A stretch of 64,000 nucleotides of DNA, from positions 960,001 to 1,024,000 of the forward strand of contig CAWDSK010000006.1 of assembly GCA_963804995.1 (NCBI GenBank), in the 5' to 3' direction. Below the pieces are notes generated by a model. That model saw only the letters and a program-made list of their open reading frames with translations. It was not told the DNA's origin and made no database searches. Of the stretch, positions 514 through 51,271 are shown one piece after another. Both the position numbers and the translations under genes were made by a program. How positions within the stretch are numbered: position 1 is the first letter of the stretch; the number at the start of each line of letters is the position of its first letter. This DNA is from an uncultured Acidobacteriota bacterium (GTDB taxonomy: Bacteria > Acidobacteriota > Terriglobia > UBA7540).

Positions 514-1031
514 TATGCGGGCCTCCCGGCGGCTGGGTAGGTCGTACTCGGGGGCTGGTTTCTCTACCTTCGACCTGGATGTTAACTCTCGGAGAGCCGG
601 CTGTAAAGGCGACCCTCAATTTGCTGCCTTTGCTTGAGCACGCCACCAGCCAAAACGGCACCGTTCAGCGGAGTCGTCCAGCTGACACTTAACTCCAGAG
701 CACCTGTGGCGCAGCTCCGGCAGTCGATGGTTGGAGTAAACTGGAAGCCAGTCCGGGCAGCAAGTGCAGGGTTGTCCTGACACTTGGGGAATACGGGGCG
801 GCGGCCCGTGTCGCTTCCCAACGCGCAGGAGGACGCGCTTCTTCATCAAATGAAGGGATTGCACACTCCCCACCCTCCCTCCTGAATGGACTGAGAATTG
901 CTCAACCTGCAATAGCAACGTGAGCCGGGAGAATCGCCATGGTCCGTGCTCATTCCCGAATCAAAACAGAAGACCGAGGCCGACGCTGCCACCTTACGCT
1001 AAGGCGTCCATCCGGGTGGAGATAAATTGCC

Positions 1032-1898: not shown

Positions 1899-2187
1899 GA
1901 ACTCACGCCTGGGTCAATACGAAGCATCCTTCCCTGCTATCGATCGCCTTTTGCGTTCCTCTGCGCTTTTCGTTGTTTAGCATTAATAAACACATGAACG
2001 TACGCTGTATTTAGAGCCGTGGAGTAGTGCTGAAATACGCACACCTCCGCGCTACCGGACTTGATGCGAAAGACCTCCGAGGTCAACGATGGGGGCTGCG
2101 CATGGATTGGGTAGGGTGAATCTGAGGAAGAGCCGCCGACCTCAACCCCGGAGGTCTGCGCTACGATTGGCAGGCCGGCGGGTCAAA

Positions 2188-47652: not shown

Positions 47653-47980
47653 TGAGCCCCAAAGGGGCGAAATAACAAAGCCCAGGCCAACGGCCGGGTT
47701 TAGATTATCCGCCGATTTTCCCCCAGCCCTGAAAGGGCGAGATACGCGTTTCCCCATGCCGCAATCGCTTTCCCCACTCTACGTAACACAACAAGAAACC
47801 CACCACCGCGTGGTCAGCGGAATTCCGGAAGCTGCTGGACGCGCACGGAATCGCCTACGACGAACGGTACGTGGGGGATTGAAAAGGATTGTTCCACCCC
47901 TTCAGGGCTCGGGTATCGGTTTGGGTCCCGCTGACCCAGGCCGTTGGCCGGGCTTCGTTAGTTCGCCCCTTTGGGGCTCA
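47653..47980 (+). mobile_element. Internally deleted IS200/RAYT-like tnpA remnant with palindromic inverted ends
   Basis: MPQSLS start at 47756 joined to a C-terminal EFRKLLDAHGIAYDERYV fragment; about 40-bp imperfect inverted ends containing GCCCCAAAGGGGC, with inner GCCCTGAAAGGGC-type hairpins. Confidence 0.7.
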
Positions 47981-48327
47981 AAAACCTGGGCTTCGTTAGA
48001 TCGGTTCCCTCCCCTCGGAGAGGGCGGTTACTCAAGGTAAGGTGCGGCGCCGTAGCCACCCTGAGATCATAGCCTTCTCCCCAGGGGAGTCCGATTGCTG
48101 GACCCCGATGGGGTCCATCGGAACCCAGACATCGGGGAAGGTGGCCGGCTGGCGCAGGGCGAGCGCAGCCCTGCGATTGTAGTGCGGTCTGATGACGTGA
48201 ATCGCAGAGCTGCGCTCTGATGTTATGAAAGCGGCGATGCCTCCTCGGGTGCCGCTAAACTGGAGGTGGTCCAGTTTAGCGGGCCCTCGGGTTCAGACCG
48301 AGAGTTTTGCATCGAGGAGACAAAGCG

Positions 48328-49429
48328 ATGAAGAAGAGTATAACGCCCATTGGAACGCCGGTGGGAGTGGATGTTCACAAGCGTCGTTGCAAGGTGGTGG
48401 AGCTTGATCACGGAGAGATTAAGGCACGGAAGTCGATGGCCAACACGCGGGAGGAGTGGCTGGAGATGTTGACGGAACTTCCTCCCGACGCCGAGATCGG
48501 CCTGGAGGTGAGCACGGCAGGCTACTTTGCCATGAGCGTGCTGGAAGAGGCGGGGTGGCGAGAGCGCGCGCACTGGGTGCACACGGCGGGGATCGACAGC
48601 AACCGCCGGCAGAAGAATGATCGTTTAGATGCCGAGCGGCTGGCGCGCAAGCTGGCCGCGCACCATCTGGATCCGCTGCCGGAGGCGTGGTTTCCGCCGC
48701 CGGAGATTCGCGCCCTGCGTCTGCGCGCACGCCAGCGCTGCTGGTTGGCCCTGCTGCGCACGCAAAGCCAAGAATCACCTGCAAAGCTTGCTGGGGATGC
48801 ATGGCTTGCAGGCGCCGGGGACCGACCCGTTCGGAGCGGCCGGGGAGAAGTGGCTGGCGGAACAGACCTTGCCGATGCCCTTGGCCGAAAGTATCCCTCA
48901 GATCCAACGCCTGCTGCAGTTCCTGGAGGAGGAGATCGAAATCAGCGAGAAGTACTTGCAGGCGGTGGACGGACAATTCCCCGAGTTGGCGCTGCTGCGC
49001 ACAATCCCCGGCATCGGCCCCATCCTGTCCCCGGTGATTTGGAGTGAGATCGGCACGATCGAGCGGTTTCGTTCCGCCAAGGCCTTGGCCAACGATACGG
49101 GGCTGGTCTCCAGCTTTTACGACAGCGGGGAAGTGAAGGTGTCGGGTCCCATCACCCGCCAGGGATCGCGCTGGCTGCGCTGGGCCTTCGTCACCGCCGC
49201 CAATGTCGCCATTCAATACCGCAATCCTTTCGCGCGGCGCTACCACCGCCTGCGCCGCAGCAAGAAACCCAACGTGGCCAAGGCCGCCATCGCGCACTCC
49301 TTGGCGCGTTGTGCGTATGGAGTTTTGAAGCACGGCTGCCCTTATCGGGAAGACCGTTGGGGCCGCCAAGTCGGCGTACTGGAGCAGGAAGCCCGTGCTG
49401 GCGCTAGGTACACCAAGACCGCGCTCTGA
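48328..49429 (+). CDS. IS110 DEDD recombinase/transposase (frameshift near 48766)
   Basis: GVDVHK, GLEVST and KNDRLDA catalytic residues; TIPGIG, GLVSSFYDSG and GSRWLRWA motifs. Confidence 0.92.
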
Positions 49430-49500
49430 TAGGGACCTGCTCCCGAACAACCTCATGGGGACCAGGGCAACCTGGCTAGCCCGTAGAGATGAAAGGGACC
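49390..49500 (+). ncRNA. Putative bridge/seek RNA (target- and donor-binding loops)
   Basis: Guides 49397-49404 and 49421-49428 match the target flanks; 49449-49456 and 49485-49492 match the circle junction. Each pair lies in a stem-flanked internal loop. Confidence 0.75.
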
Positions 49501-50091
49501 GAACCGACTCGGCAAACTCGCATGGCAAGAGCAAGAACCCAACGCCCACGGGGCCGTGCTTCATCCCCGGCAGGCGGCGGGGAGCCAACCCTTCCCGCCC
49601 CCCGGGCTCTACATAAAGGAGGAACGACTATAACTTGGAATAATCCTATGAGATAATACGTACAGAATGGCAGCCGACGGCGAAGTCGGCAACCCGCCAC
49701 TTTGCCGAAGGGGTACGGCGCGTTTTTCAGGCATGGGGAAGCTGTGCCCAGAGCTTAGGAGGGGGGCGACCGCAGGCCGCCCCGGCATCGTTTCCATCAG
49801 CCTCCGACCGGCTATTCCTCAGCGGGTTGCTCGCCAGCAGAGCCCGCCTCCGCTTCACCGGCTGCAGGCCATTCTGAAGTCGAAGGGAGAAGTTTGTCAA
49901 AGGCGAATAAGAAATTCAAAAAATCGGCTTGACACGGCATCGCGGTTTCAGAGATGCGCCAGCCGGCCAAAAGAGAGGGCAGAGAACCACGGTCGGTAGG
50001 CTTCAAAAAAGAGTGGGTCAAGGAAGGGTCAAGGACAGGGTCAAGGAAGTCGCAAGCCATAAATGAGAGCTTGTGGTAATATGCGCCGGTC

Positions 50092-50682
50092 ATGGGACTT
50101 AAAAGCATTCCCCAGGAAGTCCGCGACAGATTTCGCATTGAGGAACGCGGACACGCTTCTGCCATCCTCGCGAGCGATTACCCGAACGAGTTTAAGGACC
50201 TCGTGGAGTGTCTCGGTGCGTTCTCTTTGAAGCGCAGCCATATCATGAACCCAGGTGGGGGAAGATCACAGATTCCAGAGATGATTGACGGATTTCTTCG
50301 CGAGCGGGGGTGGGGAGAGAAATCGTTCGATATTGCGATCACCGTGGACGGCAGACCAGTTCCGATCCCGACTCACAAGATCGACAATTTCAAAAATGAG
50401 GTGGGGGTGGAAGTGGAGTGGAACAACAAGACAGAGTTTTACGACCGCGACCTTAATAACTTCCGGCTACTGAAAGAACTTCGGGTGCTTGCGGTTGGGG
50501 TCATCATCACCCGATTGAGCGAGTTGAGGACATTGTTTACGCAGCTTGGAGAGTGGCACAAATACGGAACGACATCGACGCATTGGGACAAACTCATACC
50601 GAAGGTAGATGGAGGCGGCGCTGGGGGCTGCCCGCTTCTACTGGTGGGGATTGGAGAGGCTTGTTACGATCCCCATTCGTAG
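50092..50682 (+). CDS. BglII/BstYI family restriction endonuclease
   Basis: THKIDNFK..GVEVEWNNKTEFYDRDL (D..ExE active site). Confidence 0.8.
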   Translation: MGLKSIPQEVRDRFRIEERGHASAILASDYPNEFKDLVECLGAFSLKRSHIMNPGGGRSQIPEMIDGFLRERGWGEKSFDIAITVDGRPVPIPTHKIDNFKNEVGVEVEWNNKTEFYDRDLNNFRLLKELRVLAVGVIITRLSELRTLFTQLGEWHKYGTTSTHWDKLIPKVDGGGAGGCPLLLVGIGEACYDPHS

Positions 50683-51271
50683 CCCACGCATACGCCTTGT
50701 ACGGAGGAGGCTCGTAACTATCCAATTCGTCACCCCATTGGGTCCAGCCGCGCACCCGGCAGCGACCGAAAAGCTCACAATACGGTCCAGGGCTGCAACG
50801 CTCGATGATGTCGTAAAGCGCTTCTGGTTTCTTGGAGTGCTCCTGCTTTCGAGTGACGATAACGTTGACCTGGCTTCTCCCTGGCGCGAGCGTCCGCATA
50901 CGGCCCTTGATGCCGAATAGAACCAACTCGGTCACGTTGCGGAAGTAGAATCCGACGCCGCGGCCGTCCGGCCCTCCATCCTTACGGACTTTGTACCAAA
51001 CGATGTTCGTCTTGTACGTGAATCCCCACGCCTTCATAATGCCAAGGGCCTCGGCCACAAGCGCGTTGGGGCACCACAGATAAAGGTGGCTCTTTTCAGC
51101 GGCGATTTTACCGACTGGCAGGGCAGCAATCTCCTCGAAAGAAAGCGTCTCGTAGCGATGAAGCCGCTTATGCTCCGGGGCCATCTTTCCCGTACGGTTG
51201 GCGAAACGCCAAGGAGGATCAATCAGGATCGTACCGTATTTGCCCTGCACAGCCTCTAAAAGGCTTTGCAC
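50594..51271 (-). CDS. MT-A70 family N6-adenine methyltransferase
   Basis: ILIDPPW, HLYLW, WGFTYKT, HSKKPE and ELFGR..WGDE motifs. Confidence 0.9.
   Translation of the reverse strand: MQSLLEAVQGKYGTILIDPPWRFANRTGKMAPEHKRLHRYETLSFEEIAALPVGKIAAEKSHLYLWCPNALVAEALGIMKAWGFTYKTNIVWYKVRKDGGPDGRGVGFYFRNVTELVLFGIKGRMRTLAPGRSQVNVIVTRKQEHSKKPEALYDIIERCSPGPYCELFGRCRVRGWTQWGDELDSYEPPPYKAYAWATNGDRNKPLQSPPVEAGSPQRRLHLPSV

What the first reader, a model, noticed from the sequence alone, without database searches (positions are those of the whole stretch)
48212..49968. IS1111-type element with readable bridge-RNA guides; target loop overlaps the transposase C-terminus
Seen: the element splits a REP, and the empty site is GCGCTC-TG-CGCCAGC. 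GCTGGCGC (49397-49404) is the exact reverse complement of 49956-49963, and GCGCTCTG (49421-49428) equals 48212-48219. Both sit in an internal loop between short stems. The circle junction would read AGAGA-TG-ATGTT: AGAGATGA (49485-49492) matches 8/8 and AACCTCAT (49449-49456) matches the opposite strand 7/8, flanking a CCAGG-GCAA-CCTGG hairpin. TTGACA (49929-49934) plus junction-created GATGAT at 18-bp spacing would form a circle promoter. Known: IS110/IS1111 recombinases use bispecific bridge/seek RNAs. Inferred and unusual: TG core, right-then-left guide order, and target guides inside the last codons of the ORF, so retargeting would recode the protein tail.
Basis: partly seen in the sequence, partly recalled or inferred. 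Interest (0 to 1): 0.85.

Follow-up and report, generated by a model that had tools for sequence, protein, structure and literature searches.

The report
RNA-guided jumping gene splitting a REP
This is a slightly damaged copy of an IS1111-type jumping gene that carries its own guide RNA for finding one spot in a repeated DNA hairpin; it is a clear new example of a mechanism described in 2024, not a new mechanism.

Summary
Window 48218-49956 is one of four copies of a 1.74-kb IS1111-type insertion sequence. It has a DEDD transposase, subterminal inverted repeats and a long 3' non-coding end, and it sits in a REP hairpin at GCGCTC|TG|CGCCAGC.

The guide reading holds. A sister element in the same genome has the same ends but a different target, and different guides at the same positions. 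A covariance model found 54 relatives (44 distinct). Their guide strands covary with their flanks (0 of 5000 permutations reach the observed match on either side), and the stems keep pairing through compensatory changes (98% of cells paired, 15 of 22 pairs).

The claims of unusualness mostly fail. "Right-then-left" guide order is the published IS1111 norm, and a TG core was not shown to be special. The overlap of the target loop with the transposase tail is real but lineage-specific: 16 of 43 relatives read through to a fixed UGA, with about ten different tails, and 25 of 43 stop before the guides.

The window copy has a private frameshift; two other copies are intact.

Unexplained: a ~180-nt block near the right end is far more conserved than the transposase and is shared with IS3-type elements.

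Verdict: new member of a known kind.

The parts
48142..48217 (.). Left part of the split REP hairpin: outer arm 48142-48156, inner arms 48161-48178 and 48200-48217. The left target is GCGCTC at 48212-48217.
   Evidence: Inverted repeats I3 and I5; same context at uninterrupted sites.
48218..49956 (+). The whole IS1111-type element, 1739 bp counted with a TG at both ends (core TG at 48218-48219 and 49955-49956).
   Evidence: Four copies share these ends and sit in like flanks. The sister element B has the same ends.
48226..48241 (+). Left subterminal inverted repeat (TGAAAGCGGCGATGCC).
   Evidence: pair I13: 13 nt, 85% complementary to 49936-49948. Sister element B matches at 13 of 14.
48252..48302 (+). 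Left-end hairpin (48252-48264 with 48270-48282, 13 bp perfect), followed by a terminator-like stem-loop (48286-48302) just upstream of the ribosome-binding site.
   Evidence: pair I8.
48328..49429 (+). DEDD transposase gene, broken here by one extra base at about 48761-48762. Intact copies encode 366 aa.
   Evidence: Pfam PF01548 and PF02371.
49381..49443 (+). Target-binding arm of the bridge/seek RNA. P1 is 49381-49388 with 49436-49443; P2 is 49392-49394 with 49432-49434; P3 is 49407-49409 with 49418-49420.
   Evidence: RNAalifold and pair counts; single-sequence fold.
49397..49404 (+). Right target guide GCUGGCGC. [quoted passage not shown]
   Evidence: There are six guide classes, each matching its own right flank.
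49421..49428 (+). Left target guide GCGCUCUG, identical to the left flank plus core. UGA at 49427-49429 is the transposase stop codon.
49444..49457 (+). Candidate right donor guide strand (CGAACAACCUCAUG). It is partly complementary to core plus left end, ATGATGTTAT.
   Evidence: 8 of 10 here, 4-8 of 10 in relatives, same register in 36 of 38 guide sets.
49458..49482 (+). P4/P5 hairpin separating the two donor strands. P4 is 49458-49460 with 49480-49482; P5 is 49462-49466 with 49471-49475.
   Evidence: All 5 P5 pairs and 2 of 3 P4 pairs show double changes.
49485..49492 (+). Left donor guide AGAGAUGA, identical to the right end AGAGA plus core TG plus A.
   Evidence: Present in 38 of 38 distinct guide sets. 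The right end is equally invariant, so covariation could not be tested.
49499..49512 (+). Small hairpin after the donor strand (CCGA with UCGG). Relatives have a different sequence there that still forms a hairpin.
   Evidence: by inspection.
49703..49725 (+). Terminator-like stem-loop followed by a run of T.
   Evidence: GGCG(C)GTTTT is kept in 8 of 10 relatives.
49722..49905 (+). Highly conserved block of unknown function. Its core is 49803-49862.
49929..49934 (+). TTGACA, the -35 box of the inferred circle-junction promoter. The -10 (GATGAT) would form only when the right and left ends are joined.
   Evidence: TTGAC is kept in 10 of 10 relatives. The junction itself was not observed.
49936..49950 (+). 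Right subterminal inverted repeat (GGCATCGCGGTTTCA).
   Evidence: pair I13.
49957..49969 (.). Right target CGCCAGC and the outer arm of the split REP.
   Evidence: pair I5.

Best explanation
Window 48218-49956 is a copy of an IS1111-type, RNA-guided insertion sequence of a soil acidobacterium (Terriglobia).

Intact copies encode a 366-aa DEDD recombinase. The 3' end of that gene runs straight into a bridge/seek RNA of about 130 nt (49381-49512).

The first arm of the RNA is a stem-loop. Its internal loop carries two guides. [quoted passage not shown] The other is identical to the left half-site plus core (GCGCUCUG), so it pairs with the bottom strand. Together they specify GCGCTC|TG|CGCCAGC in one arm of a REP hairpin.

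Downstream, two single strands flank a small hairpin. They match the element's own joined ends: AGAGAUGA equals right end plus core, and AACCUCAU is partly complementary to core plus left end.

The following steps are inferred and were not observed here. The element excises as a circle. Joining the ends places TTGACA 18 bp from a newly formed GATGAT. Transposase mRNA and guide RNA are made as one transcript. The RNA then bridges the circle junction and the REP site for recombination at the shared TG.

The window copy cannot make transposase because of a private 1-base insertion. Its RNA is intact apart from one change in the P5 hairpin loop (49467), and two sister copies could supply the enzyme.
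For: Family features:
- Pfam DEDD_Tnp_IS110 (1.4e-12) and Transposase_20 (9.6e-20).
- Subterminal inverted repeats (pair I13).
- A 527-nt 3' non-coding end against a 110-nt 5' end.

Site specificity:
- 4 of 4 A copies have CGCCAGC on the right, and 3 of 4 have GCGCTC on the left.
- Uninterrupted sites exist elsewhere in the genome.

Covariation within the genome:
- Sister element B has 4 copies, the same ends and a transposase gene 67% identical in DNA.
- B sits at (CTG)ACCG|TG|GCTACC. At the aligned guide positions it carries GGTAGCCA and ACCGTG.
- The stems change in a compensatory way, GGAGCAGG/CCTGCTCC to GGGGCAGT/ACTGCCCC.

Covariation across relatives:
- 54 matches in 76 sources, 44 of them distinct.
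- 35 unique right-guide/right-flank pairs average 5.69 of 6 identities. 39 unique left pairs average 3.97 of 6.
- Shuffling flanks among guides reached the observed totals in 0 of 5000 trials on either side.
- Guide classes cross transposase lineages. For example, G016 is 81% identical to A in protein but carries B-type guides and sits at a B-type left flank.

Structure:
- 98.1% of cells paired; 15 of 22 pairs changed on both sides; 0 of 500 shuffles as good; slid controls paired at 27-58%.

Donor side and promoter:
- The donor strand AGAGATGA is present in 38 of 38 guide sets.
- The -35 box is kept in 10 of 10 relatives.

Comparison with a known member:
- IS5075 has the same layout by my reading of one copy: a top-strand match, a bottom-strand match 27 nt later, then a right-end match about 70 nt further on.

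Published order and location agree (PMC11187229 section 9; PMC11208160 section 12).
Against: - No RNA ends, circle junction or transposition were observed. The metatranscriptome data are contigs 90-95% alike from other strains, and such contigs cannot show transcript ends or levels.
- The donor side could not be tested by covariation, because all relatives share the same ends.
- The right donor guide matches at only 4-8 of 10 positions although the left end is invariant.
- The register of the right target guide differs by one column between A-type and B-type guides, and the core T is unpaired in A-type guides.
- Left-guide matches are short in several single insertions. Three such sites share only 2-3 flank bases next to the core: L057, L071 and the G017 site (L019 and L065, identical flanks).
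- Terminal extensions beyond the inverted repeats total about 12 bp. The published values are 7+3 or 6+3 (PMC11187229).
- No Rfam family matched.
- The relatives are kin, and many sit in the same REP families, so the permutation figures overstate independence.
Confidence: 0.9

Rival explanations
1. The element is an IS1111-type IS, but the donor half of the RNA is not a guide. The ends would be recognised by the protein through the subterminal inverted repeats, the RNA would specify only the target, and AGAGAUGA would be conserved for some other reason, such as protein binding or processing.
For: Siddiquee et al. describe only target matches in the short seekRNA and stress the inverted repeats as a family difference in end recognition (PMC11187229, sections 6 and 9 and passages of the Discussion). 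The right donor strand is poorly complementary, at 4-8 of 10. There is no covariation to test, because ends and strand are both invariant.
Against: An exact 8-mer of the joined ends sits at a fixed place in 38 of 38 guide sets. It lies about 60 nt after the target loop, as in IS5075. [quoted passage not shown]
Confidence: 0.2
2. The window copy is an inert relic. Its transposase is frameshifted, it carries 24 private substitutions, and it will not move again. The guides are then a fossil record rather than a working system.
For: 25 of 31 variable columns among the four copies are private to the window copy, including the frameshift.
Against: The RNA region of the window copy differs from the intact copies at one loop base (49467) and at 49511, just 3' of the donor strand, and both ends are intact. 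Two copies encode the full 366-aa protein, so mobilisation in trans is possible. This rival concerns activity, not identity.
Confidence: 0.4
3. The matches between the 3' region and the flanks are not RNA guides. They would be REP-like sequence picked up by the element, or the chance similarity expected in GC-rich palindromic DNA.
For: In the window copy alone the right flank has two other reverse-complement matches of 8 or more nt inside the element, and the fold z-score is modest at -2.04.
Against: The two matches are on opposite strands and split by a conserved hairpin. They change in step with the flanks in at least six right-guide classes and 14 left-guide variants, while the stems are kept by compensatory changes.
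Confidence: 0.02

Closest known systems
IS1111-family seekRNA elements ISEc11, ISPa11 and ISKpn4 (Siddiquee et al. 2024, PMC11187229)
   Same: DEDD transposase, subterminal inverted repeats, and the long non-coding region 3' of the gene. The RNA carries a top-strand match 5' of a bottom-strand match, and the two matches overlap in the target. The target is a REP (ISPa11's target also starts with GTAG), and the promoter is formed at the circle junction.
   Different: The protein is only about 25% identical to IS4321 and IS5075; ISEc11, ISPa11 and ISKpn4 were not compared. The RNA starts inside the transposase gene instead of about 100 nt after the stop, as I read in one IS5075 copy. The terminal extensions are longer. 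About 450 nt of extra sequence, including a conserved block, lies between the RNA and the right end.
IS621 bridge RNA (Durrant et al. 2024, PMC11208160; Hiraizumi et al. 2024, PMC11208158)
   Same: Bispecific logic. The left guide is identical to the top strand of the left half-site plus core. The right guide is complementary to the top strand of core plus right half-site. A second set of strands matches the joined element ends. The shared core is a dinucleotide, and the target is a REP.
   Different: The RNA is 3' rather than 5' of the gene, and the guide order is reversed. The donor strands are not in a closed internal loop. The core is TG rather than CT. I could not identify handshake guides. 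The core T is unpaired by the right target guide in A-type elements.
ISPpu9 with its ssr9 module (Pares-Guillen et al. 2025, PMC12288879; abstract only read)
   Same: An IS110-family element inserted in REPs that carries an extra small-RNA module downstream of the transposase. This is a possible precedent for the conserved block at 49722-49905.
   Different: No solo copy of the block exists in this genome: all 8 copies are inside A or B elements. The block is also found in IS3-type elements. No function or separate circle is known for it.

Membership tests
IS1111 group of the IS110 family | DEDD (RuvC-like) N-terminal domain plus a C-terminal Transposase_20 domain containing the GL-P----S/TG motif | tested here: met
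   PF01548 and PF02371 are above their cut-offs in both A and B proteins. B has GLVPSSYDSG; A has GLVSSFYDSG, with P replaced by S (translations; motif as given in PMC11187229 section 6).
IS1111 group of the IS110 family | Subterminal inverted repeats, usually 11-13 bp | tested here: met
   48229-48241 pairs with 49936-49948 (13 nt, 85%). Element B matches at 13 of 14.
IS1111 group of the IS110 family | Terminal extensions beyond the inverted repeats of 7 bp (left) and 3 bp (right), occasionally 6 and 3 | tested here: not met
   Depending on where the shared TG is assigned, the extensions are 6-8 bp on the left and 4-6 bp on the right, 12 bp in all (published values from PMC11187229). I treat this as a variant geometry, not an exclusion.
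IS1111 group of the IS110 family | The longer non-coding region lies downstream of the transposase gene | tested here: met
   527 nt downstream against 110 nt upstream.
IS1111 group of the IS110 family | Site-specific insertion without target duplication, each IS having its own target | tested here: met
   All 4 A and 4 B copies share a half-site pattern specific to their type. Across relatives there are 35 unique right flanks and 39 unique left flanks.
IS1111 group of the IS110 family | seekRNA with the top-strand match 5' of the bottom-strand match | tested here: met
   49397-49404 precedes 49421-49428, and all 54 matches have the same order.
IS1111 group of the IS110 family | A circular intermediate with a junction promoter; RNA bound by the transposase and required for transposition | not testable with these tools
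   Only the -35 box and its conservation (10 of 10) are visible. No junction read was available.
IS621-type bridge RNA | Two closed internal loops, each with a left and a right guide, in the order left then right, with the core paired by all four guides | tested here: not met
   The order is reversed. The donor strands flank a hairpin with no closing stem found. The core T is unpaired by the A-type right target guide. The element works like a bridge RNA but is not of the IS621 architecture.
Rfam families (release 15) | A match of the RNA region to any curated covariance model | tested here: not met
   No family matched 49381-49512 or 49722-49905 at E up to 1. The block also has no match in six other loci.

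The most novel reading that the evidence does not exclude
The block at 49722-49905 may be an undescribed structured RNA module carried on the sense strand in the 3' untranslated part of unrelated transposase genes.

What was seen:
- The block is about 93% identical between elements A and B, whose transposase genes are only 67% identical in DNA.
- It occurs in 60 of 137 genomes of the order, against 16 of 137 for this transposase.
- It also lies directly after IS3-type (rve) transposase genes and in IS-poor intergenic spots.
- It keeps hairpins through G-C to G-U changes that only make sense on the + strand.
- It is the part of the element most often hit by metatranscriptome contigs from four studies.

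One possibility is a hitchhiker like ssr9 of ISPpu9. Another is a shared control or stability element for transposase transcripts.

Separately, in the A lineage the transposase stop codon is the UGA formed by the core-binding UG of the left target guide. Ribosomes must therefore melt the target loop on every pass, which could couple translation to guide-RNA maturation.
Probability: 0.3. Interest if true: 0.6.

Novelty: new member of a known kind. Interest (0 to 1): 0.38.

Why it matters
The mechanism (IS110/IS1111 bridge or seek RNAs) has been in print since 2024, so the element does not change what is known.

Its value is as a natural experiment. Within one closely related family, with transposases 79-93% identical in the A lineage, nature has retargeted the same scaffold to several REP variants. 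Right and left guides have been exchanged independently and moved between transposase lineages. The exact guide lengths can be read from the flanks: 6-7 nt plus core on the right, 4-6 nt plus core on the left.

IS1111-type RNAs are less well characterised than IS621, so this gives a compact 130-nt scaffold with ready-made specificity variants for anyone engineering them.

The read-through of the gene into the target loop shows that a guide loop can be translated without harm. It is also a practical warning that searches limited to non-coding ends may clip such RNAs.

The conserved 3' block is the only part that could lead somewhere new.

Tried and rejected
- Rfam scan of 47800-50400 at E up to 1 found only a sub-threshold Acido-Lenti-1 match outside the element.
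- Handshake guides as in IS621 (PMC11208158 section 11). I compared the bases after the right target guide and after the candidate right donor guide with the last bases of the opposite left half-site. There was no consistent match, apart from an invariant U after B-type right guides that could pair with the last A of the right end. Left open.
- A closing stem for the donor strands. AGUCGG at 49366-49371 could pair with CCGACU at 49504-49509, and B has GCCGGC with GCCGGC, but this competes with the small hairpin at 49499-49512. Not resolved.
- A conserved small ORF in the block. Rejected, because the distance between conserved anchors is 55 nt in A and 60 nt in B.
- A minus-strand transcript of the block from TTGACA-N18-CAGAAT at 49900-49871. 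Not favoured. The stems contain many G-U pairs that would be A-C on the other strand, and the hexamers are not kept in the IS3-type copies.
- Metatranscriptome and metagenome runs. All are contigs from relatives (90-99% alike). They show that RNA libraries contain this sequence family, but not ends, strand or level. Stretches without cover are no evidence.
- Donor covariation. The covariance model did not hit the distant relatives (28-35% identity; L102, L103, L107-L110, L038, L040, L041). I could not define their ends, so the donor guides remain untested by covariation.
- The earlier-notes look-up by sequence found nothing for the block.
- One search failed because my start coordinate was off by one base. 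I repeated it correctly.
- The plasmid search gave only distant relatives, at most 33% identity.
Full report
**What is in the sequence.**

The element runs from the TG at 48218-48219 to the TG at 49955-49956 (1739 bp). It interrupts a long imperfect palindrome. 48142-48156 pairs perfectly with 49955-49969 across the element, and 48161-48178 pairs with 48200-48217.

The genome that holds the window has 7.55 Mb in 9 contigs. All relatives found are Acidobacteriota/Terriglobia.

It carries four copies of this element, "A", one of which is interrupted. It also carries four copies of a related element, "B".
- All four A copies have CGCCAGC on the right. Three of four have GCGCTC on the left, and the fourth has CGGCTC.
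- The uninterrupted 15-mer occurs twice perfectly in the genome, and 49 times with at most one mismatch.
- Most of those copies share the REP context AATCGCAGAGCTG..GCTC.
- About 17 of the 49 belong to an unrelated repeat.

**The gene.** Intact copies encode a 366-aa protein with DEDD_Tnp_IS110 and Transposase_20 domains.

The window copy has one extra base at about 48761-48762. Of the 31 columns that vary among the four copies, 25 are private to it. It is therefore the oldest and only frameshifted copy.

A fourth copy (C3:1379537 onward) carries a 1104-bp insertion inside the RNA region.

**Family features.** Subterminal inverted repeats are present (pair I13). The long non-coding end is 3' of the gene. 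Insertion is site-specific without duplication.

One feature departs from the published description. The terminal extensions beyond the inverted repeats sum to about 12 bp, against the published 7+3 or 6+3 (PMC11187229, passage).

By protein identity the family is remote from named members. IS5075 and IS4321 are about 25% identical, and the best plasmid hit is 33%.

**The target guides.** The single-sequence evidence is weak. The element contains two other reverse-complement matches of 8 or more nt to the right flank, and the fold z-score is -2.04, with 7 of 200 shuffles as good.

The comparative evidence is strong.

Element B has the same ends (TGATGTTATGAAA ... TTTCAGAGATG) but sits at (CTG)ACCG|TG|GCTACC. 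At the positions aligned to A's guides it carries GGTAGCCA, the reverse complement of TGGCTACC, and ACCGTG, which equals left flank plus core. The enclosing stem changes from GGAGCAGG/CCTGCTCC to GGGGCAGT/ACTGCCCC.

I collected relatives from reference genomes (8 loci), from the order (16 of 137 genomes with the transposase) and from metagenomes (55 loci). I then built a covariance model from 13 sequences. It found 54 matches in 76 sources, 44 of them distinct.

Reading guides from the model alignment and flanks from the element ends gave these results:
- There are six right-guide classes. Five match their own right flanks, including GCTGGCGC with CGCCAGC, GGTAGCCA with GCTACC, CGTAGCGC with CGCTACG and GGTAGCGC with CGCTACC.
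- The sixth class, GGTCGCCC, has one site, GCTACCA, and carries one mismatch.
- There are 14 left-guide variants. For example, GTGTCG sits at ...GTGTCG|TG, GTAGTC at ...GAGTC|TG and GCGGTC at ...GCGGTC|TG.
- Mean identity is 5.69 of 6 over 35 unique right pairs and 3.97 of 6 over 39 unique left pairs.
- Shuffling flanks among guides never reached the observed totals. On the left the observed total was 155 against 92.6±8.6. On the right it was 199 against 161.2±5.9. Both were 0 of 5000.

Misses exist. At L057 and L071 only TC matches before the core, and at the G017 site (L019 and L065, identical flanks) only C. One right flank is CGCGGAC instead of CGCCAGC. Two elements (L084, L085) have an apparently truncated right end.

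Guide classes cross transposase lineages. G016 and L063/L064 are 81-82% identical to A in protein but carry B-type guides and sit at B-type sites. The G005 group is about 53-60% identical to A and carries A-type right guides.

The sequences are kin and often sit in the same REP families, so the permutation figures overstate independence.

One oddity remains. The right guide is read one column further 3' in A-type loops than in B-type loops, and the core T is unpaired in A-type loops.

**Structure.** The consensus has five helices. Counted on 44 distinct sequences, 98.1% of cells pair. 15 of 22 pairs change on both sides, and 0 of 500 shuffles do as well. Slid controls pair at 27-58%. That alignment was fitted to the model, which favours the structure. 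The independent MAFFT alignment of 13 sequences gave 14 of 22 pairs with compensatory changes.

**Donor side and promoter.** AGAGAUGA equals right end AGAGA plus TG plus A. It is present in 38 of 38 distinct guide sets.

The strand 5' of the P4/P5 hairpin matches the reverse complement of ATGATGTTAT at 8 of 10 positions here and at 4-8 of 10 in relatives. The register is the same in 36 of 38 sets.

Because all relatives share the same ends, this is conservation and not covariation. The donor strands are not closed by a stem of their own. [quoted passage not shown]

TTGAC of the -35 box is kept in 10 of 10 right ends. The -10, GATGAT at 18 bp, exists only after the ends are joined. This is inferred.

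**Comparison with the literature.**
- Durrant et al. define the left guide as pairing with the bottom strand and the right guide with the top strand (section 7).
[quoted passage not shown] The "right-then-left" order is therefore the family norm.
- A review table lists ISEc11 as inserting at TG*AA, and ISPa11 as targeting a GTAG-type REP (PMC13604230, Table 1).
- In one IS5075 copy I read the same layout, but about 100 nt after the stop codon. The top-strand match AAAACGGAAA is at +97, the bottom-strand match TATTTT is at +124, and a right-end match ATAGATT lies about 70 nt further on.

**Overlap with the gene.** In all 43 relatives with a frame anchor, the last codons overlap the 5' strand of P1.
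- In 16 of 43, all from the lineage at least 79% identical to A, the frame runs through the whole target loop. It ends at the invariant UGA made of the core-binding UG plus A.
- In 2 of 43 it stops inside the loop.
- In 25 of 43 it stops before the guides, at TAA, TGA or TAG.

The 13-residue tail differs with the guides, in about ten versions such as EARAGARYTKTAL, EARGSHRSTKTVP and ETRRSARSTKTAV.

The overlap is therefore real, and retargeting does recode the tail. The tail behaves as an unselected read-through.

I found no mention of such an overlap in either paper. I searched passages of Siddiquee et al. for "termination codon", "stop codon" and "overlap", and passages of Durrant et al. for "coding sequence" and "overlap". 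Durrant et al. define the ends as non-coding. Two library searches gave nothing further. I could not see the figures that show stop-codon positions.

**The unexplained block.** Between a terminator-like hairpin (49703-49725) and the -35 box lies a block, roughly 49722-49905.
- It is about 93% identical between A and B, whose transposase genes are 67% identical in DNA.
- It is absent from the short family members of 1471-1484 bp.
- It is not a conserved ORF.
- A 126-nt probe matched 60 of 137 genomes of the order. This tally includes the unpublished genomes G117, G119, G036 and G120. The 16-of-137 tally includes the unpublished genome G118.
- Of 30 loci fetched, 10 hold a P0001-like transposase.
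- In four loci the block follows an IS3-type (rve) ORF. Others lie beside ordinary genes or are right-end remnants of this IS.
- In this genome all 8 copies are inside A or B elements.
- No Rfam family matches it.
- An alignment of 20 shows hairpins of variable sequence and many G-C to G-U changes that fit the sense strand. Only 2 of 23 predicted pairs have double changes.
- Metatranscriptome contigs from four studies pile up on 49810-49862 with unlike flanks, and in one run on 49373-49573. These are contigs of relatives and prove neither strand nor level.
- ISPpu9 with its ssr9 module is a possible precedent (PMC12288879, abstract only).

**Verdict.** The element is a new, well-resolved member of the IS1111 kind, and only the conserved block is really unexplained.

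Noticed in passing
window 49722-49905 (core 49803-49862); also L135, L138, L139, L141, L131, L134: A conserved block near the right end is about 93% identical between elements whose transposase genes are 67% identical. It is found in 60 of 137 genomes of the order, including after IS3-type transposase genes. It has no Rfam match and is frequent in metatranscriptome contigs. Its function is unknown.
   Followed up: partly
G000 C3:1380797-1381900 (inside A copy 4; loci L004, L005, L049), equivalent to window 49476/49477: A 1104-bp element has inserted into the P4/P5 region of the bridge RNA of the fourth copy. It has terminal inverted repeats of about 25 bp, a TA duplication and a two-frame ORF. 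It looks like an IS630/Tc1-type IS. Pfam was not run on it.
   Followed up: partly
window 50092-50682 (+) and 50594-51271 (-): Directly right of the element lie a BglII-like restriction endonuclease gene (PF09195, 1.1e-38) and an MT-A70 methyltransferase gene (PF05063, 2.2e-28). They converge and overlap at their 3' ends, which suggests a type II restriction-modification pair.
   Followed up: no
window 47935-47978 (+): A sub-threshold match to the Acido-Lenti-1 RNA motif (29.5 bits against a gathering score of 37; E = 0.0004), about 240 nt left of the element.
   Followed up: no
G000, at least 17 places, e.g. C1:424885, C2:22996, C3:186500: Another multi-copy repeat with identical 100-nt context contains GCGCTCTTCGCCAGC, one mismatch from the A target. 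It is probably part of a different mobile element.
   Followed up: no
window 48252-48302: The left end holds a perfect 13-bp hairpin and then a terminator-like stem-loop just before the transposase ribosome-binding site. Element B lacks the second structure through a deletion of about 30 nt. This may be a block to read-in transcription.
   Followed up: no
L117 (G015 C4), L116, L118, L121, L123, L128: One internally deleted derivative of about 1.03 kb keeps both ends. Several right-end-only remnants (block plus right end plus target-like flank) have no transposase gene nearby.
   Followed up: partly
B-type target CTGACCG|TG|GCTACCCGC (e.g. G000 C6:541000 region): The B target reads GTAGCC on the opposite strand. 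It therefore appears to be a GTAG-type REP, possibly the same kind of repeat that earlier notes of this scan report as the landing site of about 40 group II introns in this genome. The 12-mer ACCGTGGCTACC occurs 87 times.
   Followed up: no
L034 (G014 C380): 744-890 (-) and 1915-2054 (+): Two family members, one B-like and one A-like, lie head to head within about 1 kb on one contig.
   Followed up: no
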